64,000 nucleotides of DNA from a virus (IMGVR_UViG_3300023202_000061); one strand, 5' to 3'; positions 7,704 to 41,534 are shown, counted from the first letter of the stretch. Notes: a model not told the origin generated them from the letters alone. Translations and numbers: made by a program.

Positions 7704-7704
7704 T

Positions 7705-8351: not shown

Positions 8352-8747
8352 AATAGAACTGGCCATGGAAAAGTTGGGGTACAATCTTTTATCACATTAA
8401 AAACAATGCAAAAAGAAGAGGTATACCATTTGAAATAACAGCTGAACAGATTAGTGATCTTTTTGAAAAGCAAATGGAAAGTGCTTAATATCTGGAGTTG
8501 ATATTGTTTTAGTTAAAAACTATAGAGACAATAACAAAAACAATACAGCGTCTTTAGATAGAATCGATAATTCAAAAGGATACACAATTGACAATATTCA
8601 ATGGGTTCATAAAGTGGTAAACATCATGAAAAACAAATTAACCGCTGAAGAACTTCTGACATGGTGTCAGAAAATAGTTAAAAACCAAAACAAGTCTCAA
8701 CATTCCCAGGGAGGGAATCGAGACAACAACACGGAGAGTGTAACATG
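8352..8747 (+). pseudogene. degraded HNH homing endonuclease (frameshifted fragments)
   Basis: frame A ...NNAKRRGIPFEITAEQISDLFEKQ stops at 8476; a second frame gives NGKCLISGVDIVLVKNYRDNNKNNTASLDRIDNSKGYTIDNIQWVHKVVNIMKNK, the HNH_3 C-terminus also seen in the 61294 gene. Confidence 0.55.
8700..8744 (+). promoter_or_regulatory. second copy of the conserved 45-nt leader, upstream of NAMPT
   Basis: ACATTCCCAGGGAGGGAATCGAGACAACAACACGGAGAGTGTAAC matches 6564-6608 at about 39 of 45 positions. Confidence 0.6.
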
Positions 8748-18921: not shown

Positions 18922-19344
18922 AGATTCGCATTTCGCAGCTGTTTTTAGCTGTATCTTTAGTTTTTAACAGAAAAATAGATTTTGTCCTTGACGACCTGAG
19001 CGTTTTACCTCACCCTTATGAACATCATCTTTGACTCGTTTCTGAACATATAAAGTGTTCGTTACTAAAAGAAAAACATAAAAATTCATGTCCTGATTAC
19101 TTTTCGGGTCGAGAACTGGGCATATCCCAACAATACTTTTAACCGGCAGAAAAAACTGCCCTTCAACTGATAGAAAACAATGTCTTCATTTACCCTGACA
19201 CGCCAAGAGATTACCAAGCCGTTGAATAACGGTCTGGCACTCGTATGCGCTCAGAATTGGGGACATGCGGATTTTTATCAGCCAGAAGGTAGCACCTGCC
19301 GGAGTACACAGTTGATCTAAGTACACACAAAGATCATCTCGATG

Positions 19345-19377
19345 AACCGGCAGGGAAAAATCCCTAGCCGGTTTTTC
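19345..19377 (+). terminator. rho-independent terminator-like hairpin AACCGGCAGGGAaaaaTCCCTAGCCGGTT then TTTTT
   Basis: long GC-rich stem followed by T-run, just upstream of the tRNA array. Confidence 0.55.
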
Positions 19378-19417
19378 ATATCTACATTCTTTATTCAATA
19401 ACAACATAAATACCTAA

Positions 19418-19489
19418 TGGGGTATCGTCCAACGGTTAGGACAGCAGGCTTTGACCCTGTCAATGTGAGTTCGAATCTCGCTACCCCAT
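19418..19489 (+). tRNA. tRNA-Gln(TTG)
   Basis: acceptor TGGGGTA/TACCCCA, anticodon loop CTTTGAC, T-arm GTGAGTTCGAATCTCGC. Confidence 0.7.
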
Positions 19490-19586
19490 CTACCGACGAC
19501 AAGTTGGTTTGGACTCTGCAACAGTCAGGGTTCTTATCGAGGGATATGCATTTACCTCTCGGTCATTGACAACTGAATACCTTTTA

Positions 19587-19672
19587 TGCATCAGCGACAG
19601 AGTTGGAGAGCTGTGGCAGTCTGTAAAACTGTTCCCTTCGGGGTGAATAGGTTCGAATCCTATATGATGCAC
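19587..19672 (+). tRNA. tRNA-Tyr(GTA), long variable arm
   Basis: acceptor TGCATCA/TGATGCA, anticodon loop CTGTAAA, extra arm TCCCTTCGGGGTGAA. Confidence 0.55.
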
Positions 19673-19740
19673 ACCTTGAACTTTTTGTTTGGTAGGGTTA
19701 TGAACTCTAACATTCGAATGGTCAAACATTAAGTTCACCT

Positions 19741-19811
19741 AGGTCCATAGTGTAACGGTAGCACGAGAGCCTCCAAAACTCTTTGTCCGGGTTCAAATCC
19801 TGGTGGACCTG
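19741..19811 (+). tRNA. tRNA-Trp(CCA)
   Basis: acceptor AGGTCCA/TGGACCT, loop CTCCAAA, T-arm CCGGGTTCAAATCCTGG. Confidence 0.65.
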
Positions 19812-19815
19812 CTAA

Positions 19816-19883
19816 GTAACGCGCATCGAGATCATTCATCAAACTTGAAAATTGAAAACGAGGGTCTCCACTTTTTTCGTTAC
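19816..19883 (+). repeat. A/B cassette 1 (motif A 19816-19840, motif B 19862-19883), empty
   Basis: GTAACGCGCATCGAGATCATTCATC ... GGGTCTCCACTTTTTTCGTTAC; outer ends GTAACG/CGTTAC are inverted repeats. Confidence 0.6.
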
Positions 19884-19890
19884 TATTTAT

Positions 19891-19963
19891 CCTTCGGTAG
19901 CTGAGGTGGCTTTAGCGCTTGTCTGAAGAACAGGAGATGTCGGTTCGACTCCGACCCGAAGGG
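19891..19963 (+). tRNA. tRNA-Phe(GAA)-like
   Basis: acceptor CCTTCGG/CCGAAGG, loop CTGAAGA, T-arm GTCGGTTCGACTCCGAC. Confidence 0.6.
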
Positions 19964-19980
19964 CTTATATGATAACACAT

Positions 19981-20063
19981 GCTGATGTGGTGGAACGGTA
20001 GACACGGTAGGTTGAGGGCCTGCTGCTCGAAAGGGCGTGAGAGTTCGACTCTCTCCATCAGCA
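19981..20063 (+). tRNA. tRNA-Leu(GAG), type II
   Basis: acceptor GCTGATG/CATCAGC, loop TTGAGGG, long variable arm. Confidence 0.6.
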
Positions 20064-20065
20064 CT

Positions 20066-20146
20066 GCGAGAATGTAGAGCAAAGGCGGCTCAGGGGTCTC
20101 ATAAGCCCTTCCATTCGGCACGACAGGTTCGATTCCTGCTCTCGCA
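20066..20146 (+). tRNA. tRNA with CAT anticodon (Met/Ile), atypical
   Basis: acceptor GCGAGA/TCTCGC, loop CTCATAA, T-loop TTCGATT; extra nucleotides. Confidence 0.35.
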
Positions 20147-20190
20147 ACCATCCCGAAATCTAGTTTAACGGAGAGAACGCTGGTTTACAT

Positions 20191-20262
20191 TGTAGGATAG
20201 GCAATCGGTACGCCGGCTGCTGTTAACCAGTGACGATGGGGGTTCGAGTCCCTCTCCTACAG
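20191..20262 (+). tRNA. tRNA (anticodon region GCTGTTAACCAG, probably Asn GTT)
   Basis: acceptor TGTAGGA/TCCTACA, T-arm GGGGGTTCGAGTCCCTC; anticodon stem ambiguous. Confidence 0.4.
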
Positions 20263-20354
20263 CGAGAGAAGATATTCGTAGGTTCGAATCCTACCATGGC
20301 ACGACTCGGGAGGGTACGGTCATGTGGCTGGAGGAAACAAGTACTTCTCGTTAT

Positions 20355-20435
20355 TTCAGGGTGGCCGAGCGGTAAGGCAGCTGGCTGTTAACCAGTCGCA
20401 GAAATGCATCGCGGGTTCGAATCCTGCCCCTGGAG
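20355..20435 (+). tRNA. type-II-like tRNA, anticodon loop CTGTTAA (GTT?)
   Basis: acceptor TTCAGGG/CCCTGGA, D-arm GCCGAGCGGTAAGGC, extra hairpin GCAGAAATGC. Confidence 0.35.
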
Positions 20436-20436
20436 C

Positions 20437-20543
20437 AGAGTGATGGCGGAATGTGTAGTTGTAAGACTACCGGTAGACGCTAGGTTAGGCAAAAGCTGAA
20501 GTCGAGACAATTTGTCGTGGAGGTTCGAACCCTTCTCACTCTA
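20437..20543 (+). ncRNA. unusual 106-nt tRNA-like gene (canonical acceptor and T-arm, expanded interior)
   Basis: acceptor AGAGTGA/TCACTCT, T-arm GGAGGTTCGAACCCTTC; interior does not fold as a standard tRNA. Confidence 0.35.
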
Positions 20544-20547
20544 CTTA

Positions 20548-20722
20548 GATAACGCGCTTTAGAGGATCTTTCATCGGTAAAGCAAATGTATCATAAACAT
20601 TAGATTGTTGGTTCAAGTCCAACCCTCGCCACCAAACCTGTAAGGAATAAAGGAATACTTACAAGTTCAAATTTCGGCGAGGTAGCTAAATTAAACTCGG
20701 GTCTTCGCCCCTTTTCGTTATC
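20548..20722 (+). repeat. A/B cassette 2 (A 20548-20575, B 20699-20722) enclosing permuted tRNA-like halves
   Basis: 3' portion 20576-20634 (anticodon arm CAT, T-arm, acceptor-3' CCTCGCC-A-CCA), then 5' portion 20676-20698 (acceptor-5' GGCGAGG TA GCT...); the two acceptor strands are perfectly complementary. Confidence 0.55.
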
Positions 20723-20741
20723 TTATTGGTTCCATAGTTTA

Positions 20742-21023
20742 ATGGTAAAGAGAAGAGTAAAAAATACTAAACTAACTAGAGAACGTCATAGGGAGAAGAT
20801 AGCGGATATTAAAAACAATCATCCATGTGTTGATTGTGGTAAGAAGTACCCGCATTATGTTTTACAATTTGATCATTTAAAAGACAAATCATGTAATGTC
20901 TCTAATATGCCGGGTAATGTTTCATGGAAAAAAATTCAGAAAGAAATAGATAAATGTTAAATTGTATGTTCTAACTGTCATCAAATTAGAACATGGGAAC
21001 GAAGACAATCAGGGTATAGCTGA
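20742..21023 (+). pseudogene. HNH endonuclease, interrupted by in-frame TAA at 20958-20960
   Basis: HPCVDCGKKYPHYVLQFDH...KC [TAA] IVCSNCHQIRTWER: the canonical C..CH half of the HNH motif lies after the stop, and the frame runs into tRNA-Pro. Confidence 0.5.
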
Positions 21024-21082
21024 GCTTGGTTTAGCGCCACGTTTGGGACGTGGAGACGGGGGTTCGAATCCCTCTTCCCTGA
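21010..21082 (+). tRNA. tRNA-Pro(TGG)
   Basis: acceptor CAGGGTA/TTCCCTG (one mismatch), anticodon stem CCACG/CGTGG, loop TTTGGGA, encoded CCA. Confidence 0.65.
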
Positions 21083-21158
21083 CCAGAGTGTAATGTCAAT
21101 TTGGTAGACGGCCTGCCTTGGACGCAGGAGGTTGCGAGTTCGAATCCCGCCACTCTGA
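21083..21158 (+). tRNA. tRNA, loop CTTGGAC (anticodon TGG?), abuts previous tRNA
   Basis: acceptor CAGAGTG/CACTCTG, anticodon stem CCTGC/GCAGG; T-stem has a mismatch. Confidence 0.4.
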
Positions 21159-21238
21159 CCGAGTTCTTCTAATGAGGTGAAGATTAAATTTGATGACCGA
21201 GACAGATTAACTTCTGCGAATTTTCAAGCTCCCACAAT

Positions 21239-21318
21239 GCTGATGTGATGAAACTGGTAAACATAGCACGCTTAGAACGTGCCGCTTCGGCTTGGGGGTT
21301 CGAGTCCCTCCATCAGCA
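21239..21318 (+). tRNA. tRNA-Leu(TAG), type II
   Basis: acceptor GCTGATG/CATCAGC, anticodon stem GCACG/CGTGC, loop CTTAGAA, variable hairpin GCTTCGGC. Confidence 0.65.
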
Positions 21319-21501
21319 CAAACTCTTATCAAAGGAGATAATCATGAAGTCAATCGTTACACTCGTCATCTGCGTATGATCTTGCATACGCAGAGAGTAC
21401 AAGGTCATACGCGCCTCAGTAAACCATTCTGGTAACTGGGACAGACCGCTCCCTAGTTCACCTATCTCTGCACCCATCCAAGCGGTGTAAGGTGAACACA
21501 A

Positions 21502-21762
21502 ATGAGTAAGCTAGGAAAGCTCAGAGCATCTGAGCAACGTAAAGCAGCCAAGAGGGCACGTAAAGATTCCAGAAGAAGGTTCTGGGAAAATCTAATGGCT
21601 CAAGGGCTAAATCGTAAAGTCAAGAATTATGAACTTGAGAAGATGCATGGACATGATCATCCGAGAGGTCCTTGCGGAAACATAGGTTGTAAAAAATGTA
21701 ACCCACAAGAGTATAATCTCTTGACCCCACGATTGCTTCATGCAAAGAACAAACAGTCTTAA
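21502..21762 (+). CDS. hypothetical basic protein
   Basis: 86-aa ORF inside the tRNA array. Confidence 0.45.
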   Translation: MSKLGKLRASEQRKAAKRARKDSRRRFWENLMAQGLNRKVKNYELEKMHGHDHPRGPCGNIGCKKCNPQEYNLLTPRLLHAKNKQS

Positions 21763-21793
21763 TTGACCACGACGCCTGGAAGGGCGTCACCTT

Positions 21794-21866
21794 GGAAAGG
21801 TAGCTCAGCTGGTAGAGCATTTGGTTGAAGCCCAGAGTGTCGTTGGTTCGAATCCAACTCTTTCCA
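21794..21866 (+). tRNA. tRNA-Phe(GAA)
   Basis: acceptor GGAAAGG/TCTTTCC, D-arm GCTCAGCTGGTAGAGC, loop TTGAAGC. Confidence 0.7.
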
Positions 21867-21871
21867 CCGTG

Positions 21872-22051
21872 TAACGCGCACTAGAGATCTTTCATCGGTA
21901 TGTAAACCCCTGTGTCGTTAGTTCGAATCTAACCTGGGCCACAAGATCATTGCGATCCTAGACTCCTATCCCAGATAGGGACGGAGTTGCCTGGCCCGGT
22001 AGCTCAGTTGGTAGAGCAAGGAAAAAGCTTGGTCTCACCTCTTTTCGTTAC
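21872..22051 (+). repeat. A/B cassette 3 (A 21872-21896, B 22031-22051) enclosing permuted tRNA-like halves
   Basis: 3' portion ends GTTAGTTCGAATCTAAC CTGGGCC A (21917-21941); 5' portion GGCCCGG TA GCTCAGTTGGTAGAGCA (21993-22018); acceptor strands pair 7/7 with one G-U. Confidence 0.55.
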
Positions 22052-22058
22052 ACAATTT

Positions 22059-22131
22059 GTCCCCATAGATTAGCGGTTAAATCGCTTGGTTTTCACCCAG
22101 GAGATCGTCGGTTCGAATCCGACTGGGGATG
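22059..22131 (+). tRNA. tRNA-Glu(TTC)
   Basis: acceptor GTCCCCA/TGGGGAT, anticodon stem CTTGG/CCAGG, loop TTTTCAC. Confidence 0.65.
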
Positions 22132-22236
22132 CAAGGTTTAGAAGCAGGTTAGCAAATCGCGCGAATAGTGGTTCGAGTCCACACCTAAACTTAGTAGGAA
22201 AAGTGAAGTCTGCAGCTGAACAATTCCTGCGTCTAT

Positions 22237-22308
22237 GGGAGTAGATGGTCCGGTAGACCTGCTTCGCCTGATAAGCGAAGTGGCTAAGTTCAACTCTTAG
22301 TATTCCCA
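22237..22308 (+). tRNA. tRNA-Ile(GAT)
   Basis: acceptor GGGAGTA/TATTCCC, anticodon stem CTTCGC/GCGAAG, loop CTGATAA. Confidence 0.6.
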
Positions 22309-22309
22309 C

Positions 22310-22383
22310 TGGGGTAGACGATCCGGTAGATCTATTACGTCTGATAAATGTGATGCGCTTGAGTTCGACTCTCAGTACCCCAA
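22310..22383 (+). tRNA. tRNA-Ile(GAT), diverged second copy
   Basis: acceptor TGGGGTA/TACCCCA, loop CTGATAA, T-arm TTGAGTTCGACTCTCAG. Confidence 0.5.
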
Positions 22384-22424
22384 CTACGAAACCAAAGGTT
22401 TCTAAAGAAGCTTTGTCTTCATAT

Positions 22425-22492
22425 GGTGTGGTAGTTTTGGAAACAAACTTGGTTGTGACCCAGGTTAAGGGGTTCGATTCCCCGCTACACCC
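22425..22492 (+). tRNA. tRNA-His(GTG)
   Basis: acceptor GGTGTGG/CTACACC, anticodon stem CTTGG/CCAGG, loop TTGTGAC. Confidence 0.6.
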
Positions 22493-22497
22493 CACAT

Positions 22498-22582
22498 GGT
22501 AGGTCAAATCGATTGGCGACGAAAACTGTTTTGAAAACAGCCGAGCGTAACAGCCTTGGGGGTTCGATTCCCTCACCTACCG
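22498..22582 (+). tRNA. tRNA-Ser(TGA), type II
   Basis: acceptor GGTAGGT/ACCTACC, loop TTTGAAA, long variable arm. Confidence 0.55.
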
Positions 22583-22584
22583 CT

Positions 22585-22709
22585 AGACGCGCATCGAGGA
22601 GTGTTCATCGTTATGGGTGGTGAAACTGAGCATCACGCCGGACCCTAGCGGGTCCGTAGTTCTGGGTTCGAATCCCAGCCTATAACCTACTCTTTGAGTT
22701 TTTCGTCTA
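22585..22709 (+). repeat. A/B cassette 4 (A 22585-22609, B 22691-22709) enclosing a closed tRNA-like element
   Basis: interior 22610-22687 has 8-bp acceptor GTTATGGG/CCTATAAC, two hairpins and T-arm CTGGGTTCGAATCCCAG. Confidence 0.5.
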
Positions 22710-22711
22710 AT

Positions 22712-22786
22712 GGACCCTAAGCTAGATTGGAACAGCATCCGGTTCTTACCCGGAAGATATCCTCGGTTCGATTCCGAGAGGGTTCA
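22712..22786 (+). tRNA. tRNA-Lys(CTT)
   Basis: acceptor GGACCCT/AGGGTTC, anticodon stem TCCGG/CCGGA, loop TTCTTAC. Confidence 0.6.
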
Positions 22787-22815
22787 CTAAAATAATTTCG
22801 AACTATCTACTAATA

Positions 22816-23517
22816 TTGTCTCATACAGATATGATAGATAATGGTTCGATATGGTCTGAACAGAATTTCAGAAAAGCTGTTCAAAAAAGTAAAAATATTT
22901 CAGAAACATTAACAAGATTGGGATTAAATCCTCGTGGTAACTATAGAACGTTTCACAAGTATAAGAAAATCTATAGTATAGATACCTCTCATTTTCTTGG
23001 TAAAGATGAAAGATTAAAAATAGCCAGAGAGCAAAGAAAGATAACTAATCTTGATGAAATTTTAGTAAAAGATTCATTCTTTGCACCAAAGGGTCTAAAA
23101 AAGAGATTGATAGAAGAGGGGCATTTTGAATACAAGTGCTCAAGCTGTGAGATATCAGAATGGAAAGGTAAACCACTATCATTACAGATGGATCATATCA
23201 ACGGTGACAAATTTGATAACAGGATTGAAAACTTAAGGCTACTGTGTCCCAACTGTCATTCCCAAACTCCTACATTCTGTGGCAAGTCAAATAAATCAAA
23301 GCATGTTAAGTGTAAGTGCGGAAAGGAGATGTATTACAGTTCAACTCTTTGTAAAGAGTGCATTCTAAAGAATAGAAAAACCAAAATATCCTGGCCTAGA
23401 ATAGAATGGTTACAAGCAGAGGTTAAGAAGAGGGGGTTTGTAGCTGTAGGAAAAGAGTTAGGCGTTTCTGATAACGCCATCAGAAAACGAATACAAAAAA
23501 TTCGTAAGTCTGATTAG
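22816..23517 (+). CDS. HNH homing endonuclease
   Basis: HINGDKFDNRIENLRLLCPNCHSQT. Confidence 0.8.
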   Translation: MSHTDMIDNGSIWSEQNFRKAVQKSKNISETLTRLGLNPRGNYRTFHKYKKIYSIDTSHFLGKDERLKIAREQRKITNLDEILVKDSFFAPKGLKKRLIEEGHFEYKCSSCEISEWKGKPLSLQMDHINGDKFDNRIENLRLLCPNCHSQTPTFCGKSNKSKHVKCKCGKEMYYSSTLCKECILKNRKTKISWPRIEWLQAEVKKRGFVAVGKELGVSDNAIRKRIQKIRKSD

Positions 23518-23524
23518 GACTATT

Positions 23525-23549
23525 GGGGTTCGACTCCCTGGTAGCCCAC
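23525..23549 (+). other. orphan tRNA 3' fragment (T-arm GGGGTTCGACTCCC plus acceptor-3' TGGTAGCC-A) immediately after the HNH gene
   Basis: no matching 5' half nearby. Confidence 0.4.
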
Positions 23550-23550
23550 T

Positions 23551-23664
23551 GGAACGCGCCTTGTTGAGGTTTCATCTGGTGAAATGGAAAACACAATTGA
23601 CAACAAATCAATCAACTGCGGGTTCGACTCCCGCGATGGTTATACTCCTCTTCGCTCTTTCGTT
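23551..23664 (+). repeat. A/B cassette 5 (A 23551-23576, divergent B 23645-23664) with a degenerate tRNA-like interior
   Basis: interior TGGTGAAATGGAAAACAC...GCGGGTTCGACTCCCGC GATGGTTAT; the D-region resembles tRNA-Leu(CAA) at 31324. Confidence 0.45.
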
Positions 23665-23672
23665 CCAAATCT

Positions 23673-23753
23673 TGGGGTGTCATCTAACGGTAGGATGACA
23701 GGTTCTGATTCTGTTCATGCGGGTTCGATTCCTGCCACCCCAGCCCAAAACGT
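23673..23753 (+). tRNA. tRNA-Gln(CTG)
   Basis: acceptor TGGGGTG/CACCCCA, anticodon stem ACAGG/TCTGT, loop TTCTGAT. Confidence 0.6.
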
Positions 23754-23827
23754 ATTCATTCTGTCCGTGGTAACCAAAGGAGTGAATGGAACAAGGAGCC
23801 TGTACTTGGAAACTAATTCAGGTATAT

Positions 23828-23893
23828 TGAGGTATCGTCTAACGGTAGGACAACAGTCTCTGACATGTGGGAGTTCGAATCTCTCTACCTCAA
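23828..23893 (+). tRNA. tRNA, anticodon undetermined
   Basis: acceptor TGAGGTA/TACCTCA, D-arm GTCTAACGGTAGGAC, T-arm GGGAGTTCGAATCTCTC; anticodon stem does not pair cleanly. Confidence 0.4.
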
Positions 23894-23975
23894 CCATCGT
23901 CCCAGTGAGGGTTGAACTCCTTCCTGGTTGGGCTCATGAGCCCATAGCTTGCGCTTCAAGCTGGGACGTTTTCAT

Positions 23976-24048
23976 GCTAACGTGGTATAATGGCTATTAC
24001 GCTACTCTTGTAAAGTAGATGATGCAGGTTCGAGTCCTGTCGTTAGCT
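23976..24048 (+). tRNA. tRNA-Thr(TGT)
   Basis: acceptor GCTAACG/CGTTAGC, anticodon stem CTACT/AGTAG, loop CTTGTAA, encoded CCA. Confidence 0.65.
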
Positions 24049-24091
24049 CCAAATAAGTCGAGAAACTCTGGTAATACTGGAACAATTCATT

Positions 24092-24352
24092 ATGAGAATA
24101 TTTTATCTTTCATTAGTTTTCGTTTTAATTGGTTGTGGTAGTTACATGAATCCAACAACAGATGTAACACGTCCCACAGAACAACAGTTGCAGTCTTACC
24201 AAAATGTTTGGGTTTGTGAAGATGATCAGGGTGTTACTCTTTCTTGTGAGTACGACGCTGATTGTTGTGAAGATTTTTCCTGTGTAAAGGATCCTGCAGG
24301 AGGGCGTAAAGCAAAGCACTGCATTTACGATCCTAATGCGCCTAAAGAGTAA
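24092..24352 (+). CDS. small secreted lipoprotein with 6-Cys knottin-like spacing
   Basis: signal peptide with lipobox LIGC; Cys pattern C-x10-C-x6-CC-x4-C-x11-C. Confidence 0.5.
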   Translation: MRIFYLSLVFVLIGCGSYMNPTTDVTRPTEQQLQSYQNVWVCEDDQGVTLSCEYDADCCEDFSCVKDPAGGRKAKHCIYDPNAPKE

Positions 24353-24380
24353 AGGTTCGCAAGCACCTTGAGCTTGTAAA

Positions 24381-24451
24381 GGTCCCATAGTTTAATGGTA
24401 AAACAAGAGCTTGTCACGTTCTAGTTAGGAGTTCAATTCTCCTTGGGACCG
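24381..24451 (+). tRNA. tRNA-Asp(GTC)
   Basis: acceptor GGTCCCA/TGGGACC, loop TTGTCAC, T-arm AGGAGTTCAATTCTCCT. Confidence 0.7.
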
Positions 24452-24453
24452 CA

Positions 24454-24524
24454 GCGGGTTGGAGCAGTCTGGTAGCTCGGTAGGCTCATAACCTACAGGC
24501 CGCAAGTTCAAATCTTGCACCCGC
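24454..24524 (+). tRNA. tRNA-Met(CAT), elongator-type
   Basis: acceptor GCGGGTT/ACCCGC, anticodon stem GTAGG/CCTAC, loop CTCATAA. Confidence 0.6.
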
Positions 24525-24530
24525 AACTAA

Positions 24531-24633
24531 AGCAACGCGCATCGAGATCATTCATCATTAGTTCGATTCTAATATCCTCCTCCAAGTATGGGGGATAGCC
24601 CATGGGGGCTGTTGGTCTTGCCTCTTTCGTTGT
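24531..24633 (+). repeat. A/B cassette 6 (A 24531-24555, B 24613-24633) enclosing permuted tRNA-like halves
   Basis: 3' portion ATTAGTTCGATTCTAAT ATCCTCC (24556-24579); 5' portion GGGGGAT AG CCCATGGGGGCTG (24590-24612); acceptor strands pair 7/7 with one G-U. Confidence 0.5.
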
Positions 24634-24675
24634 TTAACAATCTAAGATTGTCTGGAGGCCTTAGGGCCTCTAATT

Positions 24676-24749
24676 TGGCCTCATAGTGTAACGGATTAGC
24701 ACGAGACGCTTCGAACGTTTTAGTCCGGGTTCGAATCCTGGTGGGGCTG
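24676..24749 (+). tRNA. tRNA with loop CTTCGAA (anticodon TCG, Arg?) on a Trp-like scaffold
   Basis: acceptor GGCCTCA/TGGGGCT; overall about 80% identical to tRNA-Trp at 19741. Confidence 0.5.
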
Positions 24750-24768
24750 CATAACAGGGCATACAGAT

Positions 24769-25161
24769 ATGCTCACTATTGTGGATGTTAAGAGAGAATT
24801 TGATCAAGAATACAAGAAGTCTGGTATTCAGCACTTTCTCAATGATCTTTATCATGGTACAGATAGGTTGAACTGTGATGTTCGACCAGTAGCTGGCTCT
24901 GATGCATTCTTCGGATCTTATGATTACTTCGGATCTAATATTGATCAGACTGAAACTAATCCACCAGCTGGTCCATATTGGAGAATGCAACACCTTGACT
25001 CCATGAAAGAATTTCTTGATAACAACAGAGAATACAGAACTAAGAAGATCAAGGAAATGAATAAAAAGAACCCTGGTGTTAATCAAGAAAGGGTAGCGTC
25101 TAAAAGTGATGAGATTTTAAAGATGGCTTCTATCTTTGAAGAAGCAACTATGGTCCCGTAG
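24769..25161 (+). CDS. hypothetical protein
   Basis: 130-aa ORF. Confidence 0.5.
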   Translation: MLTIVDVKREFDQEYKKSGIQHFLNDLYHGTDRLNCDVRPVAGSDAFFGSYDYFGSNIDQTETNPPAGPYWRMQHLDSMKEFLDNNREYRTKKIKEMNKKNPGVNQERVASKSDEILKMASIFEEATMVP

Positions 25162-25225
25162 CATAACTGGATAATGCACCAGTCTACGAAACTGACGATT
25201 GCAGGTTCGAATCCTGCCGGGACTG
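25152..25225 (+). tRNA. tRNA-Arg(ACG)
   Basis: acceptor GGTCCCG/CGGGACT, D-arm GCATAACTGGATAATGC, loop CTACGAA. Confidence 0.65.
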
Positions 25226-25306
25226 CCGGGAGACGGTTGTGTGTCCGTCTGAGATAAAAACCAAAACACTCCGAAGTGTCGTGACACATTGTGGCACTTC
25301 GTTCAT

Positions 25307-25375
25307 GGGCTTGTGTGACGGGTCACAGGTTTCCCTTGCACGGAAACTTTGCGGGTTCAACTCCCGACAGGTCCA
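25307..25375 (+). tRNA. possible tRNA-Ala(TGC), atypical short D-arm
   Basis: anticodon stem GTTTCC/GGAAAC, loop CTTGCAC, T-arm CGGGTTCAACTCCCG; acceptor GGGCTTG/CAGGTCC with G-U pairs. Confidence 0.3.
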
Positions 25376-25444
25376 CCGGGTTTTCATATGATAGTATTGC
25401 AGTAAGAGCGCTATATCGATACGTTTATGTGAGAACCCACCAAT

Positions 25445-25516
25445 GCTGCCATAGTACAGCGGCTAGTACGCTAAGTTGGTATCTTAGTAACCCCAGTTCG
25501 ACTCTGGGTGGCAGCT
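25445..25516 (+). tRNA. tRNA-Thr(GGT)
   Basis: acceptor GCTGCCA/TGGCAGC, anticodon stem CTAAG/CTTAG, loop TTGGTAT, encoded CCA. Confidence 0.65.
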
Positions 25517-25521
25517 CCAAT

Positions 25522-25593
25522 GCAGGATTAACTCAGCGGCAGAGTGCCCTCTTGACTAGTGGGTGGCCAGAGGTTCGAGTCCTCTATCCTGCA
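25522..25593 (+). tRNA. tRNA-Val(GAC)
   Basis: acceptor GCAGGAT/ATCCTGC, D-arm ACTCAGCGGCAGAGT, loop TTGACTA. Confidence 0.55.
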
Positions 25594-25746
25594 CTGCGTA
25601 GTATCAAATGATGTGATGTTAGACGTAACAGATCATTCAGGGTACTTCGTGTTTGGCCAAAACAACGGAACGTTCTGTAGCTTAGTTGGCAGAGCAGCGG
25701 TTCACCCCGTGTACGAGTGGTTCGAATCCCTCCAGAATGTTCAAAT

Positions 25747-25826
25747 CCGGGTGATGTCCTAATGGCAGGACGCCAGTCTTCCAAACTGGAGCGAAAGCAT
25801 AGCGGGTTCGATTCCCGTCACCTGGT
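25747..25826 (+). tRNA. tRNA-Gly(TCC), extended variable region
   Basis: acceptor CCGGGTG/CACCTGG, anticodon stem CCAGT/ACTGG, loop CTTCCAA. Confidence 0.55.
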
Positions 25827-25854
25827 CTATTCAGACATACTCTTATGAGGAAGC

Positions 25855-26034
25855 TATTCTTTGTAGTTGTATTGTTTGGTATTCTGGCTCCAGGACCCTG
25901 CAGCCCTTCTCCTCGCCCTCCTTTCGGAACCGGGATGGGTGGAGGAGGATCTTTTCATCCGTACCATCTTGGTGGATACGGTGGAGAATGTGGAGGCTTC
26001 GGAGGGTTGCCAGATGAATAATGGTCCAGTCGTC
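25855..26034 (+). CDS. small Gly-rich secreted peptide (59 aa, below track cutoff)
   Basis: MRKLFFVVVLFGILAPGPC... signal-like N-terminus then GGGGSFHPYHLGGYGGECGGFGG. Confidence 0.3.
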
Positions 26035-26104: not shown

Positions 26105-26106
26105 CA

Positions 26107-26802: not shown

Positions 26803-26811
26803 AGTCATTGT

Positions 26812-30479: not shown

Positions 30480-30482
30480 TAA

Positions 30483-30601
30483 GTAACGCGCTTGAGAGAT
30501 CGTTCATCTTTTATTTGCAACATAAAACCAGCCTGTTCGATTCAGGCAATACTGCTCATGGTGGTCTAGGAGAGCAACTCGGTCTTTCTTCTTTTCGTTA
30601 C
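30483..30601 (+). repeat. A/B cassette 7 (A 30483-30507, B 30581-30601) enclosing a tRNA 3' portion
   Basis: interior has anticodon-like hairpin TTTTAT-TTGCAAC-ATAAAA (GCA), T-arm GCCTGTTCGATTCAGGC, acceptor-3' AATACTG, then D-arm-like GCTCATGGTGGTCTAGGAGAGC. Confidence 0.45.
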
Positions 30602-30606
30602 TTTAT

Positions 30607-31148: not shown

Positions 31149-31152
31149 CTAA

Positions 31153-31319
31153 GTAACGCGCTTTGAGATCATTCATCGCCTGTTAAGCCGGATATGGAGG
31201 TTCGATTCCTTCTTCTCGCGCTAAAAGCTAGTTAGTGTACGCACTAAAAGCTAATAAGTGTACGCGAGAATCGTCTAATGGTAGGACGCCGTAAAATGAG
31301 GTCTCGCATCTTTCGTTAC
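31153..31319 (+). repeat. A/B cassette 8 (A 31153-31177, B 31300-31319) enclosing permuted tRNA-like halves
   Basis: 3' portion ...GGAGGTTCGATTCCTTC TTCTCGC G (31196-31220); 5' portion GCGAGAA TC GTCTAATGGTAGGACG (31264-31288); acceptor strands perfectly complementary. Confidence 0.55.
31220..31264 (+). repeat. tandem direct repeat, 2 x about 23 nt (GCTAAAAGCTAGTTAGTGTACG / CACTAAAAGCTAATAAGTGTACG)
   Basis: forms the linker between the permuted halves of cassette 8. Confidence 0.6.
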
Positions 31320-31323
31320 TTTT

Positions 31324-35717: not shown

Positions 35718-36037
35718 TGGAAATCGGAGGATACGACATGGTTGTTGAGGGATCCTTTTCGGAGGATCTTCTCATCAACACCATCAAAGAATTTTGGCCC
35801 AAGGCTGTGGTTGATAATGTTCAAGATGAACTTAGCTCCCATAAACACGAAATTTTTGGATACTCTACAAATGATTCAAAGATGGTATGGGATGAGCATG
35901 GGCTAACGGATGAGTTTGCAGATGAAATGATTTACATCATACTTGAAAAAGACCACATCTGTTTAGTTGTAAATTCTCCAGAATCAAAAATAGGTAAGCA
36001 CATTGTTGCTACATTAGGTAAAGAAAATGGCAAATGA
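35714..36037 (+). CDS. hypothetical protein
   Basis: 107-aa ORF. Confidence 0.45.
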   Translation: MMEIGGYDMVVEGSFSEDLLINTIKEFWPKAVVDNVQDELSSHKHEIFGYSTNDSKMVWDEHGLTDEFADEMIYIILEKDHICLVVNSPESKIGKHIVATLGKENGK

Positions 36038-38231
36038 TTATTCAGAAATGAACACGTATCGTCATGATAACGTACACATCACAACAGGTGGAAAGGTTCC
36101 AATCAAGGAGTGGACCGTTGGTGTTGATGTAGAGGATGGTGCTCGTAAGCAGCTTGTTAACACAGCTCAGATGCCATTTATTTTCAGACACATTGCGGCC
36201 ATGCCAGACGTACATTCTGGTAAGGGCTCAACAGTTGGTTCGGTTATCCCAACACACAAGGCTATCGTGCCTGCTTGTGTAGGTGTGGATATTGGATGTG
36301 GAATGATGGCCGTGCAAACAACTATCAAGGGTTCTCAGCTACCAGACAACCTCGCAGATGTTCGTTCTGCTATTGAAGCTGCGGTTCCACATGGTCGTAC
36401 TGCTAACGGTGGTCCAAACGATAGAGGTTCTTGGTCCGATCCACCAAGCACTGTAGAAATCGCTTGGATGGGTCTTGAGCCAAAGTACAAGAAGATTGTA
36501 GAGAAGAATAAGGGTATTGAGTCCAGACATGGCCGAGTTCCTCATTCTCATCTTGGTACTCTTGGAACAGGTAACCACTTTATTGAGATGTGTATTGATG
36601 AATCTGATTCTGTTTGGATCATGCTTCACTCTGGGTCTCGTGGAGTAGGTAACCGTATTGGTTCCTTCTTCATTGATAAGGCTAAGCAAGAGATGGATCG
36701 ATGGTTCATTTCTGGACGTTTGCCAGATATCAATCTAGCATTCCTGCCAGAGGGATCTGATCTCTTCAAGGACTATGTTGAGGCGGTCGGATGGGCTCAG
36801 GACTTTGCTCGTACTAATCGTGAGCAAATGATGAATGCTGTCCTTAAGGCTCTTAAGAAGTGCAAAAAGATTCCTAAGTTTGAGACAACTGAGGTTGCTG
36901 TGAACTGCTTTCGAGGAGATACTAAGTTCATTACATCTACTGGAGTAAAGTCATTAAGTGAAGTTTCAGGATCAACTGTAAAGCTTTTAACAAGCACTGG
37001 TGAGTGGGTATCCGCCCCCATTAAGAGCTTTGGAGATCAAAGCATTGTAAAGCTAACACTAGGCCGTTATGATGTAACAAAAACAATTTATACTACTGCC
37101 GAACATAGATGGTTTGTAGATCCACTTCAAAGGAAGAGGGTTGAAAAACTAACAATGGATCTTGAGCCTGGGGATCGTCTAGCATTTCAACGTGCAAATA
37201 AATCTTTTGATGGTTTTGATCCGCTATTTGAGTATCGAGGTTTTACTTTCGGTGACGGTTCTACTTGTAGCGTAAACACATCTTTAGCTAATTTTTGTGG
37301 GCCAAAAATTCCATTGCTAGATCGATTTAAAAAACTAGGAGTTGGTAATGAGCCACGATCATATGGTGATACAATTCGTGTAACAGGCTTGAGAGGGCAC
37401 TGGAAAAAAACATTTGATGATCTATTTAATGCCTCTCCCAATAAGATTGCAGGCTGGCTAGCTGGGTATTTTGCTGCTGATGGTGATATCGATAAAACAG
37501 GCCGCCCCACTATTACTTCTGCTAGAAAAGAGCACTTAGAAGTTTATAGAGATTTGTGTTGGTTAATTGGAATAGCTACCTATCCCATCAGGGTAACATA
37601 TCGCACAGGATATGGAGAGGAAGAAACCCCTATTTACTTGATGGGTCTAAGTAGAAATGATTTACCAAATGATTTCTTTTTGCGCGAAGATCATCGTGTA
37701 CGTTTGCGAAGCGTTGATGAACGGTTAAATTGGAAAGTTTTATCAGTAGAAACAACAGATTGCATTGATGAAGTGTTCTGTGCTGAGGTTGATGGTACAC
37801 ACTCATTTGTATTGGAAGATGGAATCCTTACTTCGAACTGTCACCACAACTATGTGGAGAAGGAATTCCATTTCGGTAAGTCCGTATGGGTAACTCGTAA
37901 GGGCGCTATTCGTGCTCGCAAGGGTGACCTTGGAATTATCCCAGGATCAATGGGGGCTAAGTCTTTCATCGTTCGTGGACTTGGATGTGAGGATTCTTTC
38001 TGTTCAGCTTCTCACGGAGCAGGGCGTAAGATGAGCCGTACTGAGGCTAAGAAGAGATTTACACTCAAAGATCACCGAGAGGCAACTGAGGGTGTTGAGT
38101 GTAAGAAAGATGCTTCTGTACTCGATGAGACACCACAAGCTTATAAGGACATTGATACCGTCATGGAAGCTCAGAAGGATCTCGTTGAAGTTGTTCATAC
38201 GCTCAAGCAAGTTGTTTGTGTGAAGGGGTAA
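36027..38231 (+). CDS. rtcB: RtcB RNA 3'-phosphate/5'-OH ligase, interrupted by an intein
   Basis: RtcB conserved blocks (MPDVHSGKG, GTGNHF, CHHNY, HGAGR); 734 aa versus about 420 aa expected, excess explained by the intein. Confidence 0.85.
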   Translation: MANDYSEMNTYRHDNVHITTGGKVPIKEWTVGVDVEDGARKQLVNTAQMPFIFRHIAAMPDVHSGKGSTVGSVIPTHKAIVPACVGVDIGCGMMAVQTTIKGSQLPDNLADVRSAIEAAVPHGRTANGGPNDRGSWSDPPSTVEIAWMGLEPKYKKIVEKNKGIESRHGRVPHSHLGTLGTGNHFIEMCIDESDSVWIMLHSGSRGVGNRIGSFFIDKAKQEMDRWFISGRLPDINLAFLPEGSDLFKDYVEAVGWAQDFARTNREQMMNAVLKALKKCKKIPKFETTEVAVNCFRGDTKFITSTGVKSLSEVSGSTVKLLTSTGEWVSAPIKSFGDQSIVKLTLGRYDVTKTIYTTAEHRWFVDPLQRKRVEKLTMDLEPGDRLAFQRANKSFDGFDPLFEYRGFTFGDGSTCSVNTSLANFCGPKIPLLDRFKKLGVGNEPRSYGDTIRVTGLRGHWKKTFDDLFNASPNKIAGWLAGYFAADGDIDKTGRPTITSARKEHLEVYRDLCWLIGIATYPIRVTYRTGYGEEETPIYLMGLSRNDLPNDFFLREDHRVRLRSVDERLNWKVLSVETTDCIDEVFCAEVDGTHSFVLEDGILTSNCHHNYVEKEFHFGKSVWVTRKGAIRARKGDLGIIPGSMGAKSFIVRGLGCEDSFCSASHGAGRKMSRTEAKKRFTLKDHREATEGVECKKDASVLDETPQAYKDIDTVMEAQKDLVEVVHTLKQVVCVKG
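36906..37838 (+). mobile_element. intein (311 aa) with LAGLIDADG homing-endonuclease domain inside rtcB
   Basis: begins CFRGDTKFITSTG, contains LAGYFAADGDI, ends ...ILTSN with +1 Cys of extein motif CHHNY. Confidence 0.75.
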
Positions 38232-41520: not shown

Positions 41521-41534
41521 CTTAGCATGAGAGT

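What the first reader, a model, noticed from the sequence alone, without database searches (positions are those of the whole stretch)
20742..23549. HNH endonuclease genes interleaved with tRNAs, including a TAA-interrupted copy and tRNA fragments
Inside the first tRNA array, an HNH gene (20742-) has an in-frame TAA exactly between the two halves of its HNH motif (...DKC [TAA] IVCSNCH...). Its frame continues 21 codons into tRNA-Pro. Its first 30 nt (GGTTCCATAGTTTAATGGTAAAG) resemble the 5' end of tRNA-Asp at 24381. A second intact HNH (22816-23517) is followed immediately by an orphan tRNA 3' fragment (GGGGTTCGACTCCC TGGTAGCC). Another orphan T-arm fragment lies at 20270-20292. With the dead HNH at 8352-8747, the LAGLIDADG intein in rtcB, and further HNH genes at 29371, 54373 and 61294, the window holds at least seven homing-endonuclease-type elements. 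They appear to have fragmented tRNA genes on insertion.
Basis: seen in the sequence. Interest (0 to 1): 0.5.

Follow-up and report, generated by a model that had tools for sequence, protein, structure and literature searches.

The report
Phage Y-RNA-like tRNA mimics, plus HNH genes
Two homing-endonuclease genes (one dead, one intact) do sit in this phage's tRNA array, but most of the "orphan tRNA fragments" belong to a conserved family of rearranged tRNA-like RNA genes that look like partners of a phage Ro60 protein.

Summary
The sequence facts hold. An HNH gene at 20742 is cut by TAA (20958-20960) where all ten aligned homologues have Glu or Asp. It also lacks its N-terminus, so it is a pseudogene. 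A second HNH gene (22816-23517) is intact. tRNA pieces flank both genes.

The idea that endonucleases shattered tRNA genes explains only those two flanking pieces. The other "fragments" are parts of eight copies of a repeated module, all on the + strand and all between tRNA genes. Each module has a conserved 5' motif (AACGCGC..GAGATC.TTCATC) and a 3' motif (GGTCTC..CTTTTCGTTAC). The two motifs pair into a stem, internal loop, stem core with strong covariation.

The tip of the core usually carries a tRNA-like domain. Most often it is circularly permuted: T arm, then acceptor 3' strand, spacer, perfectly complementary acceptor 5' strand, then D arm.

The same modules fill the tRNA arrays of related large phage contigs. 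In five of seven Ro60-like loci examined, 2-3 cores lie 0.8-2.2 kb downstream of the Ro60-like gene, on the same strand.

Best reading: a new variant of Y-RNA-like (YrlA-type) tRNA mimics, released by tRNA-processing enzymes. No Ro60 gene lies in this window, so the link rests on relatives. A minority reading is that some modules are true permuted tRNA genes.

The parts
20729..20750 (+). 5' fragment of a tRNA-Asp-like gene (acceptor 5' strand plus D arm). The ATG of the HNH pseudogene lies in its D-loop sequence.
   Evidence: Exact 18-nt match to 24385-24402. 21 of 22 positions match 24381-24402.
20742..21023 (+). HNH homing-endonuclease pseudogene. It is N-terminally truncated, has TAA at 20958-20960, and ends at TGA 21021-21023, overlapping tRNA-Pro by 14 nt.
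   Evidence: E/D in the TAA column in 10 of 10 homologues. Intact orthologue in L001 with the same tRNA-Pro overlap.
22816..23517 (+). Intact free-standing HNH endonuclease gene (233 aa) with a C-terminal helix-turn-helix-like tail.
   Evidence: Pfam HNH_3 and HNH above cutoff. phrog_10822, E 5e-50, covering residues 10-227. Paralogues in the tRNA arrays of L001, L002, L005 and L006.
23519..23549 (+). 5'-truncated tRNA remnant (T arm plus acceptor 3' strand). It sits in the usual 'upstream tRNA' position before motif A of module 5.
   Evidence: ARAGORN calls a tRNA here only with a 37-nt 'intron' reaching into the HNH ORF, which is spurious because that stretch is homologous HNH coding sequence.
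19814..19885 (+). Module 1: 'empty' A/B core (P1, internal loop, P2, TTCATC) between tRNA-Trp and tRNA-Phe.
20264..20354 (+). Decayed module. It holds the finder's 'orphan T arm' (20278-20294), acceptor 3' strand CATGGCA, a downstream 5' strand GGTCATG (6 of 7 pairs) and a B-like end CTTCTCGTTAT. The 5' part of motif A is missing.
   Evidence: Read. B-like motif listed.
20547..20723 (+). Module 2: permuted tRNA-like domain broken in the D loop. Order: D-arm 3' part, anticodon arm (CAT), T arm, CCTCGCC-ACCA, 45-nt spacer with hairpin, GGCGAGG-TA-GCT.
   Evidence: (7 of 7 acceptor pairs).
21869..22053 (+). Module 3: permuted tRNA-like domain (Phe-type body, GTA in an irregular anticodon loop). 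Acceptor strands are CTGGGCC and GGCCCGG.
   Evidence: Rfam YrlA match at 21909-22023, 35.8 bits, model positions 23-87.
22582..22711 (+). Module 4: A/B core whose tip carries a tRNA-like element in normal (unpermuted) order, with an odd anticodon loop (ARAGORN 'tagc').
23549..23668 (+). Module 5: A/B core with a tRNA-like element lacking its own 5' acceptor strand. TTCATC partly pairs with GATGG. ARAGORN and Rfam call it 'tRNA-Cys(aca)' at 23570-23642.
24530..24635 (+). Module 6: permuted tRNA-like domain without an anticodon arm (T arm, ATCCTCC, 9-nt loop, GGGGGAT, short D arm).
30481..30603 (+). Module 7: core with an anticodon-type hairpin (GCA), T arm and D arm but no acceptor stem. Orthologous to L517_2040.
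31151..31321 (+). Module 8: permuted tRNA-like domain broken at anticodon-stem position 29/30 (GTT loop). Acceptor strands are TTCTCGC and GCGAGAA. Orthologue L005_1801 has the same stem but a TCC loop.
8461..8706 (+). Decayed paralogue of endonuclease ORF 61294-61899.
   Evidence: tblastn 35% over 86 aa, E 2e-10. Stops occur in all three frames.
36027..38231 (+). RtcB RNA ligase gene interrupted by a LAGLIDADG intein. It is followed by PRTase (38236-38775), 2H-SAK (38772-39134) and cREC (41044-41520) genes.

Best explanation
Two separate things overlap in this tRNA array.

(1) Free-standing HNH homing-endonuclease genes live in it.
- The gene at 22816-23517 is intact.
- The gene at 20742-21023 is a dying copy. 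A deletion fused an Asp-like tRNA 5' piece to its interior, and a GAA/GAT-to-TAA change cut the HNH motif.
- Its position directly upstream of tRNA-Pro, overlapping it, is the normal layout for this HNH family.

(2) The remaining 'tRNA fragments' are parts of eight copies of an RNA gene family.
- Each copy is a conserved core formed by pairing motif A (5') with motif B (3'): P1 of 8 bp, an internal loop with conserved CGC and CUUUU, P2 of 7 bp, and an unpaired UUCAUC.
- The tip of the core is empty or carries a tRNA-like domain. Usually that domain is circularly permuted, so its acceptor stem is closed by a spacer and its D loop or anticodon stem opens into the core.

Inferred mechanism:
- The modules are co-transcribed with the tRNAs.
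- RNase Z or 3' trimming at the upstream tRNA, and RNase P at the downstream tRNA, set their ends. P1 starts 3-5 nt after one tRNA and ends 4-8 nt before the next.
- The core then binds the phage clade's Ro60-like protein, as Y RNAs do.
- The tRNA-like tip mimics a tRNA elbow and may itself be nicked by RNase P and receive CCA, as reported for M. smegmatis YrlA.

What is shown and what is inferred:
- Shown: sequence, pairing, covariation, conservation, and genomic linkage to Ro60-like genes in relatives.
- Inferred: transcription, processing, Ro60 binding, and any role in RNA repair or decay.
For: HNH part:
-. TAA is the commonest ordinary stop (14 of 31 long ORFs, including EF-Tu and RtcB), and no tRNA has a UUA anticodon.

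Modules in the window:
- The window holds exactly 8 cores, all on the + strand, all in tRNA arrays, none on the - strand.
- Motif A is enriched over chance: 5 matches against 0.25 expected.

Modules across relatives:
- 32 modules in the window and 10 related loci share P1 and P2.
- 95.2% of cells are paired against 74.5% in shuffles. The covariation score is 0.559 against 0.152. There are 90 double-change cells against 21.5. Slid controls score 0.08-0.10.
- The conserved U.G pair in P2 would be an A.C mismatch on the other strand.
- 16 of 25 modules with a T arm have a 7/7 complementary acceptor 5' strand downstream, against 1.1 expected.
- MFE folds give the same architecture throughout.

Link to Y RNAs:
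- Rfam's YrlA model matches the tRNA-like part of module 3 (E 1.2e-6 locally).
- Ro60-like genes (Pfam vWA_Ro60 above cutoff; full-length tblastn to a TROVE protein; named '60 kDa SS-A/Ro' by JGI) have 2-3 cores 0.8-2.2 kb downstream on the same strand in 5 of 7 loci examined.
- One of those loci is in contig 3300009095_001812, whose tRNA arrays hold at least 9 modules.
- That contig shares genes with the window at 55-78% amino-acid identity.

Literature:
- Stem-bulge-stem Ro60-binding module in a phage: PMC12135203.
- A suggestion that some 'tRNA genes' next to a phage Ro60 are Y RNAs: PMC11482910.
Against: - No Ro60/TROVE gene lies in the 64-kb window or in the 9 kb upstream. None of the 93 Ro60-like clusters is listed on a contig of the window's length. 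The partner protein is therefore unproven for this genome.
- The core lacks the GNCGAA / GGUCCGA-type Ro-binding motif.
- The Rfam YrlA score is far below gathering (35.8 against 69), and only one of the eight modules matches at all.
- Eight or more copies per genome, with varied tRNA identities and break points, is unlike known Y RNAs, which number 1-4 near rsr.
- Some modules keep canonical 7-nt anticodon loops that a Y RNA would not need.
- My P2 alignment was chosen by complementarity, and modules were selected with a P1 pairing filter. The paired percentages therefore lean towards the structure.
Confidence: 0.6

Rival explanations
1. First reader's model. Homing endonucleases inserted into tRNA genes and broke them, so all orphan T arms and 5' pieces are debris from such events.
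For: - tRNA remnants directly flank both HNH genes.
- The L001 orthologue has a tRNA-Pro 5' half just upstream.
- Homing-endonuclease genes in phage tRNA clusters are known, for example T4 SegB (PMC2330249).
Against: - Most fragments have no HNH gene beside them.
- They occur as matched 3' and 5' parts with 7/7 complementary acceptor strands (16 of 25 against 1.1 expected).
- They lie inside a conserved, covarying A/B core.
- The same modules recur in related phages.
Confidence: 0.05
2. Some modules are genuine circularly permuted tRNA genes. The A:B helix presents the two junctions to an endonuclease. The phage RtcB ligase joins the 5' part to the 3' part. RNase P and 3' processing then open the spacer and yield a functional tRNA.
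For: - 11 of 32 modules (4 of 8 in the window) can be rejoined, starting exactly after TTCATC, into a canonical cloverleaf with a 7-nt loop, U33 and a purine at 37.
- Orthologous modules keep canonical loops while stems change compensatorily or the anticodon changes: W20552 CAT against L001_784 GAA, and W31156 GTT against L005_1801 TCC.
- Module 2 encodes CCA.
- RtcB, 2H and cREC genes are in the window.
Against: - 21 of 32 modules cannot give a canonical tRNA. They are empty cores, lack an anticodon arm, lack an acceptor stem, or have irregular loops.
- The distance from the 5'-part junction to P2 varies from 6 to 15 nt, and there is no bulge-helix-bulge motif.
- No splicing endonuclease was found among the ORFs scanned.
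- The anticodons duplicate canonical tRNAs already in the array.
- Phe-type bodies carry GTA anticodons.
- The cores sit next to Ro60-like genes in relatives.
Confidence: 0.12
3. The A/B hairpins are only structured spacers or processing signals between tRNAs (for example RNase III-type sites), or a DNA-level repeat. The tRNA-like tips are decaying pseudogenes produced by recombination within the array. There is no Ro60-related function.
For: - The hairpins always lie exactly between two tRNAs.
- 'Empty' cores exist.
- Tip topology is heterogeneous: permuted, normal, or lacking an arm.
- No Ro60 gene lies in the window.
Against: - Unpaired segments (CGC, UUCAUC, CUUUU) are invariant or nearly so across phages with diverged genes. 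This suggests specific recognition rather than a generic hairpin.
- Cores also occur outside tRNA arrays, directly downstream of Ro60-like genes, in 5 of 7 loci.
- Acceptor stems and T arms are maintained by compensatory change.
- Sigma-70 promoter and intrinsic terminator scans show nothing at the modules.
Confidence: 0.2

Closest known systems
YrlA-type bacterial and phage Y RNAs (Rfam RF02553; PMC4201824)
   Same: - The 5' and 3' ends pair into a stem, internal loop, stem module.
- The tip is a tRNA-like domain in the order T arm, closed acceptor stem, D arm.
- A 7-bp acceptor stem suits RNase P, as in M. smegmatis YrlA.
- In relatives the RNAs are encoded on the same strand within about 2 kb of a Ro60 homologue.
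- The genomic setting includes RtcB-type RNA repair genes.
   Different: - The basal motif differs (AACGCGC..GAGAUC.UUCAUC / GGUCUC..CUUUUCGUUAC instead of GNCGAA).
- The Rfam score is below gathering.
- There are eight or more copies per genome, embedded in tRNA arrays.
- The break point varies (D loop, anticodon stem, or whole anticodon arm replaced).
- Some copies keep a full anticodon arm, and some are empty or in normal order.
- The Ro60 homologue is divergent: Pfam detects only its vWA_Ro60 domain.
Circularly permuted tRNA genes of the red alga Cyanidioschyzon merolae (from my own knowledge, Soma et al. 2007; mentioned in PMC3400036)
   Same: - The 3' half lies upstream of the 5' half, joined by a short intervening sequence.
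- The leader and trailer pair with each other.
- Break positions vary.
   Different: - There is no bulge-helix-bulge motif and no splicing endonuclease.
- The flanks are conserved in sequence.
- Most copies cannot be rejoined into a canonical tRNA.
- The host is a bacterial virus.
Two-piece tmRNA from permuted ssrA genes (from my own knowledge, Keiler et al. 2000)
   Same: A permuted tRNA-like gene whose acceptor-closing loop is excised, leaving two base-paired pieces without ligation.
   Different: - There is no mRNA-like part.
- The window has an ordinary one-piece tmRNA at 60878-61258.
Free-standing homing endonuclease genes in phage tRNA clusters, e.g. T4 SegB (PMC2330249; PMC13096335)
   Same: - Endonuclease genes are interleaved with tRNA genes.
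- Co-conversion of flanking DNA and local rearrangements are expected.
- There is a life cycle of invasion followed by decay.
   Different: - These are HNH genes, not GIY-YIG.
- The HNH family at 20742 consistently ends overlapping the next tRNA gene.

Membership tests
HNH (His-Me finger) homing endonuclease: gene at 20742 | Conserved CxxC...DH...N...CxxCH catalytic / zinc motif | tested here: met
   Invariant C29, C32, D44, H45, N78, C76, C79 and H80 in alignment A1. PHROG HNH families, E 1.8e-23. No Pfam hit.
HNH (His-Me finger) homing endonuclease: gene at 20742 | Uninterrupted full-length reading frame | tested here: not met
   TAA at 20958-20960 in a column that is E/D in 10 of 10 homologues. 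The N-terminal 25-60 aa are missing. The orthologue in L001 is intact.
HNH homing endonuclease: gene at 22816-23517 | HNH domain in an intact ORF | tested here: met
   Pfam HNH_3 27.4 bits (cutoff 24.8) and HNH 23.1 bits (cutoff 21.4). phrog_10822, E 5e-50.
HNH homing endonucleases (both genes) | Site-specific cleavage of an HNH-free allele and gene conversion (homing) | not testable with these tools
   This needs enzyme assays or co-infection crosses. No near-identical HNH-free relative was found.
YrlA / Y RNA-like | tRNA-like domain in the order T arm, acceptor stem closed by a loop, D arm | tested here: met
   (alignment to RF02553 positions 23-87). (16 of 25 with 7/7 acceptor pairing).
YrlA / Y RNA-like | Score at or above the Rfam gathering threshold | tested here: not met
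   35.8 bits against 69, for one module only.
YrlA / Y RNA-like | 5' and 3' ends pair into a stem, internal loop, stem module | tested here: met
   P1 and P2 covariation. Folds.
YrlA / Y RNA-like | GNCGAA(N)G / GGUCCGA-type Ro-binding motif in the 5' strand | tested here: not met
   The 5' strand is AACGCGC followed by a variable stretch (alignment A3). A classical GGGTCG-type phage Y RNA-like is seen for contrast in L578.
YrlA / Y RNA-like | Encoded within a few kb of a Ro60 (TROVE) gene, on the same strand | tested here: inconclusive
   Met in relatives: 5 of 7 Ro60-like loci have 2-3 cores 0.8-2.2 kb downstream. Not met in the window or in the 9 kb upstream. The rest of the 138.6-kb contig was not available.
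YrlA / Y RNA-like | Physical binding to Ro60 | not testable with these tools
   Needs pull-down or EMSA.
Circularly permuted tRNA genes | 3' half upstream of a 5' half with complementary acceptor strands | tested here: met
Circularly permuted tRNA genes | Rejoined halves give a canonical cloverleaf | tested here: inconclusive
   11 of 32 modules can be rejoined and 21 cannot.
Circularly permuted tRNA genes | Bulge-helix-bulge junction and a splicing endonuclease | tested here: not met
   The junctions show a fixed UUCAUC on one side and a variable 6-15-nt A-rich stretch on the other. No tRNA-intron endonuclease family appears among the Pfam hits.
Circularly permuted tRNA genes | Circular intermediate and a mature, chargeable tRNA | not testable with these tools
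   Needs RNA sequencing.

The most novel reading that the evidence does not exclude
A subset of the modules (window modules 2, 3 and 8 and their orthologues) are functional circularly permuted tRNA genes. These would be the first in a bacterial virus. Their halves would be cut out of the conserved A:B helix and sealed by the phage's own RtcB ligase, so that part of the phage tRNA supply depends on a phage-encoded RNA-ligation pathway.
Probability: 0.1. Interest if true: 0.9.

Novelty: new variant of a known kind. Interest (0 to 1): 0.6.

Why it matters
- It changes how phage tRNA arrays should be annotated. Items scored as 'pseudo-tRNAs', odd tRNAs (for example 'tRNA-Cys(aca)' at 23570) or debris can be members of a structured RNA family.
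- It extends Y-RNA-like tRNA mimics to a clade of large environmental phages. These copies have a new Ro60-binding-type core, a high copy number and tRNA-punctuated processing.
- It gives a defined sequence motif for finding more members.
- It offers a testable link between phage Ro60, tRNA mimicry and the RtcB / 2H / cREC RNA-repair genes.
- It shows permuted tRNA-like genes with several break points, which bears on how permuted and split tRNA genes arise.
- The HNH part is ordinary. It is another example of the invasion-and-decay cycle of homing endonucleases in a phage tRNA cluster.

Tried and rejected
- Megablast of 19000-27000 against isolated phages found only short tRNA matches and no close relative.
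- Stop-codon recoding for the TAA was rejected. TAA ends 14 of 31 long ORFs, and the only suppressor-type tRNA reads UAG.
This was rejected because that stretch is homologous HNH coding sequence.
- Sigma-70 promoter and intrinsic terminator scans show nothing at the modules.
- I considered a self-cleaving ribozyme, a bulge-helix-bulge intron, an integron attC-like or IS200/IS605-type DNA hairpin, and a MITE. None fits. There are no matching motifs and no Rfam hit. The G.U pairs are strand-specific. The tRNA lies inside the hairpin, not around it.
- I tested whether motif B of one module pairs with motif A of the next, enclosing tRNA cassettes. It does not: the halves do not match across cassettes, and shuffling partners lowers pairing.
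Only filtering for A plus a complementary B recovered true members. The host taxon therefore stays unknown.
- The search for related loci with HNH 22816 gave only distant hits.
- Exact look-ups of P0001, the 553-aa AAA protein and P0073 found nothing.
- The 425-aa ORF 10782-12059 has no Pfam or PDB relative and is not a detectable Ro60.

Full report
**Context.** The window is part of a large phage genome.
- It carries 44 tRNA genes plus a tmRNA (ARAGORN). Rfam confirms 39 tRNAs and the tmRNA at gathering score.
- It encodes EF-Tu, PTH2, PhoH-PIN and an NAD salvage set (NAMPT, NMNAT-Nudix, NADAR).
- It encodes an RtcB ligase with a LAGLIDADG intein, followed by PRTase, 2H-SAK and cREC genes.
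- No isolated phage is close to it.
- A 72-aa product of the window is on record on a 138,643-bp JGI contig.
- A Logan contig overlaps window 1-2697 at 100% identity and extends 9 kb upstream.

**The observation.** The sequence facts are mostly right.
- ORF 20742-20960 ends in TAA. The same frame continues for 20 codons to TGA at 21021-21023.
- The joined product matches PHROG HNH families (E 1.8e-23). It has homologues at 41-57% identity.
- In the alignment, all ten homologues have E or D where the window has TAA (EIDKC[E/D]LVCSNCH). They also carry 25-60 more N-terminal residues.
- TAA is the commonest ordinary stop in the window, and no UUA-anticodon tRNA exists. The gene is therefore a pseudogene, unless position 20958 is a sequencing error.
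- Its first bases lie in a tRNA-Asp-like 5' fragment. 20732-20749 is an 18-nt exact match to 24385-24402.
- HNH 22816-23517 is intact. A T arm plus acceptor 3' strand follows it at 23519-23549.
- The other listed elements hold up. 8461-8706 is a broken paralogue of ORF 61294-61899. 29311-29688 and 54373-55083 are HNH genes. 61294-61899 matches endonuclease / endonuclease VII / HNH PHROGs. The RtcB intein is real.

**What the HNH genes tell us.**
- The related contig L001 has the intact orthologue of the dead gene (149 aa, EISKCELVCSNCH).
- That orthologue is likewise placed directly upstream of tRNA-Pro and overlaps it by about 21 nt. A 5' half of another tRNA-Pro(TGG) lies just upstream of it.
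- More distant homologues in L576 and L578 also abut or overlap a tRNA.
- The overlap with tRNA-Pro is therefore the family's normal layout.
- The Asp-like piece is fused to an internally truncated HNH gene. This indicates a later deletion, not the insertion scar.
- HNH 22816-like genes recur at several places in relatives' tRNA arrays.
- In L001 and L006, tRNA-Lys(CTT) is followed directly by motif A. In the window, the HNH gene plus the 3' tRNA remnant sit between them.
- This pattern fits ordinary free-standing homing endonucleases in a phage tRNA cluster, as known for T4 SegB (PMC2330249).

**The unexpected part: a repeated module.**
- Laying out the gaps between tRNAs shows a repeated unit. 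The order is: upstream tRNA, 3-5 nt, motif A (AACGCGC, 3-6 nt, GAGATC, N, TTCATC), an insert, motif B (A-rich stretch, GGTCTC, about 7 nt ending CTTTT, CGTTAC), 4-8 nt, downstream tRNA.
- The window has exactly eight such units. All are on the + strand and in the two tRNA arrays.
- There is also one decayed copy at 20264-20354. It contains the finder's 'orphan T arm'.
- A and B are complementary.

**Covariation in the core.**
- Searching motif A in IMG/VR and metagenomes, then filtering for a complementary B, recovered the same units in related large contigs of 169-336 kb. That gave 32 modules in all.
- On a structure-guided alignment, P1 (8 bp) and P2 (7 bp) are 95.2% paired, against 74.5% when partners are shuffled among modules.
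- There are 90 double-change cells against 21.5, and the covariation score is 0.559 against 0.152. Controls with partners slid by 1-3 columns score 0.08-0.10.
- Caveat: the P2 register was chosen by complementarity, and a P1 pairing filter was used in collecting modules.
- The first collection used no pairing filter and already showed P1 in all 22 modules.
- The unpaired CGC, TTCATC and T-run before CGT are invariant or nearly so.
- A conserved U.G pair in P2 means the structure exists only on the tRNA-sense strand. This points to RNA.

**The inserts.**
- In 25 of 32 modules the insert has a T arm.
- In 16 of those 25, the 7 nt after the T stem are perfectly complementary to a 7-mer downstream, against 1.1 expected from shuffles. 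The sequences differ from module to module.
- The usual order is T arm, acceptor 3' strand, spacer, acceptor 5' strand, U8-type dinucleotide, D arm. The spacer is 4-52 nt and often holds a small hairpin. This is a circularly permuted tRNA.
- The opening into the A:B core varies:
  - in the D loop (module 2; L001_784);
  - at anticodon-stem position 29/30 (module 8; L005_1801);
  - near the anticodon loop (module 3);
  - with the whole anticodon arm replaced (module 6; L002_259).
- Two window modules carry a tRNA-like element in normal order (modules 4 and 5). One lacks an acceptor stem (module 7, orthologous to L517_2040).
- Five of the 32 modules are empty cores, including module 1.
- The 'tRNA-Cys(aca)' called at 23570-23642 and the 'tRNA-???(tagc)' at 22611-22687 are the inserts of modules 5 and 4.

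**What the modules are.**
- The topology is that of YrlA, the tRNA-mimicking bacterial Y RNA (PMC4201824): ends paired into a stem, internal loop, stem, and a tip made of T arm, closed acceptor stem and D arm.
- Rfam's YrlA model aligns to exactly that part of module 3 (35.8 bits, model positions 23-87). This is below the gathering score of 69, and the basal part does not align.
- The decisive clue came from relatives.
  - A tblastn with a TROVE/vWA_Ro60 protein, met by chance next to an HNH homologue in L578, found divergent Ro60-like genes in two module-bearing loci.
  - Pfam detects their vWA_Ro60 domain above cutoff.
  - JGI names family members '60 kDa SS-A/Ro ribonucleoprotein'.
- I fetched seven loci around such genes. 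Five have 2-3 A/B cores 0.8-2.2 kb downstream on the same strand, and none on the other strand.
- One of the five is in contig 3300009095_001812. Its tRNA arrays carry at least nine modules, and it shares genes with the window at 55-78% amino-acid identity.
- Published phage Y RNA-likes show the same stem-bulge-stem logic (PMC12135203).
- A preprint has suggested that some 'tRNA genes' next to a phage Ro60 are Y RNAs (PMC11482910).

**Mechanism, with what is inferred marked.**
- Shown: the conserved, covarying core; the tRNA-like tips; the exact placement between tRNAs; the linkage to Ro60-like genes in relatives.
- Inferred:
  - the modules are co-transcribed with the tRNAs and released by the enzymes that cut out the flanking tRNAs;
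  - the core binds the phage Ro60;
  - the 7-bp acceptor stem makes the tip an RNase P and CCA-adding substrate, as in M. smegmatis YrlA;
  - the particle acts in RNA decay, repair or counter-defence alongside the RtcB / 2H / cREC genes.

**Weak points.**
- No Ro60 gene lies in the window or in the 9 kb upstream. No Ro60-like cluster is listed on a contig of the window's length.
- The Ro-binding consensus GNCGAA is absent.
- The copy number and the variety of tRNA identities are unlike known Y RNAs.

**The most interesting rival.**
- Eleven of 32 modules can be rejoined, starting exactly after TTCATC, into canonical cloverleaves.
- Orthologous modules keep canonical 7-nt loops while anticodons or stems change (CAT against GAA; GTT against TCC).
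- With an RtcB ligase in the window, true permuted tRNA genes cannot be excluded.
- Against this reading:
  - 21 of 32 modules cannot form a tRNA;
  - the 5'-side junction lies 6-15 nt from P2, with no bulge-helix-bulge motif;
  - no splicing endonuclease was found;
  - the anticodons duplicate canonical tRNAs already in the array;
  - Phe-type bodies carry GTA anticodons.
- I put this reading at about 0.1.

**Verdict.**
- The finding as written is an ordinary case of homing-endonuclease genes living and dying in a phage tRNA cluster. One detail, the overlap with tRNA-Pro, was misread as damage.
- Its 'orphan fragments' led to something better: a conserved, multi-copy family of permuted tRNA-like RNAs with a new basal core. 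These are best read as a new variant of Y-RNA-like tRNA mimics tied to a divergent phage Ro60.

Noticed in passing
window 50605-50677: A tRNA with anticodon CTA, an amber-suppressor type that ARAGORN labels 'Pyl'. It is the best-scoring tRNA in the window (Rfam 69.5 bits). TAG ends only 5 of 31 long ORFs.
   Followed up: partly
window 32800-34029; 12835-13464; 60878-61258: The phage encodes EF-Tu, a PTH2 peptidyl-tRNA hydrolase and a one-piece tmRNA (tag ANDNAFAPAALAA). The endonuclease ORF 61294-61899 starts 36 nt after the tmRNA.
   Followed up: partly
window 38236-43021: An RNA-repair-type cluster lies after the intein-containing RtcB. It holds PRTase, a 2H-SAK phosphoesterase, a cREC domain protein and a calcineurin-like phosphoesterase.
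   Followed up: partly
window 20437-20546 (and L568, downstream of its module): A tRNA-Ser-like gene with a hairpin inserted in the D-loop region. ARAGORN reports it as a 39-nt 'intron', and default ARAGORN and Rfam miss it. A similar sequence with the same insertion is present in L568.
   Followed up: no
window 20191-20263: A tRNA with an irregular anticodon loop (ARAGORN 'gtta', Rfam 39.7 bits). It sits where the 5' part of motif A of the decayed module would be.
   Followed up: no
window ~31220-31263: The spacer of module 8 contains a tandem duplication of about 21 nt (CTAAAAGCTAGTTAGTGTACGC / CTAAAAGCTAATAAGTGTACGC). It duplicates the leader and the first bases of the 5' part.
   Followed up: no
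window 50898-52391, 52526-53872, 61896-63557: Three paralogous AAA+ ATPase genes, two of them in tandem.
   Followed up: no
window 6558-10187: An NAD+ salvage / ADP-ribose set: NMNAT-Nudix fusion, NADAR and NAMPT. The decayed endonuclease remnant (8461-8706) lies between NADAR and NAMPT.
   Followed up: no
window 21502-21762 and 24092-24352: Two 86-aa ORFs sit inside the tRNA array. One is very basic. The other has a lipoprotein-like N-terminus and is Cys-rich. Neither was examined.
   Followed up: no
L578 3384-3500, 3820-3960, 5378-5500, 6204-7838: An unrelated phage contig, found through the HNH homologue P0005, has classical YrlA-like RNAs with a GGGTCG 5' motif inside a tRNA array, next to a canonical TROVE/vWA_Ro60 gene. 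One matches Rfam YrlA at 38.3 bits.
   Followed up: partly
L586 915-4234; L587 1592-4053; L507 6824-7483: The Ro60-like genes of the relatives sit among RNase T-type exonuclease, PolyA_pol/HD (CCA-adding type), metallo-beta-lactamase and AAA_33 kinase genes. This is an RNA end-processing neighbourhood.
   Followed up: no
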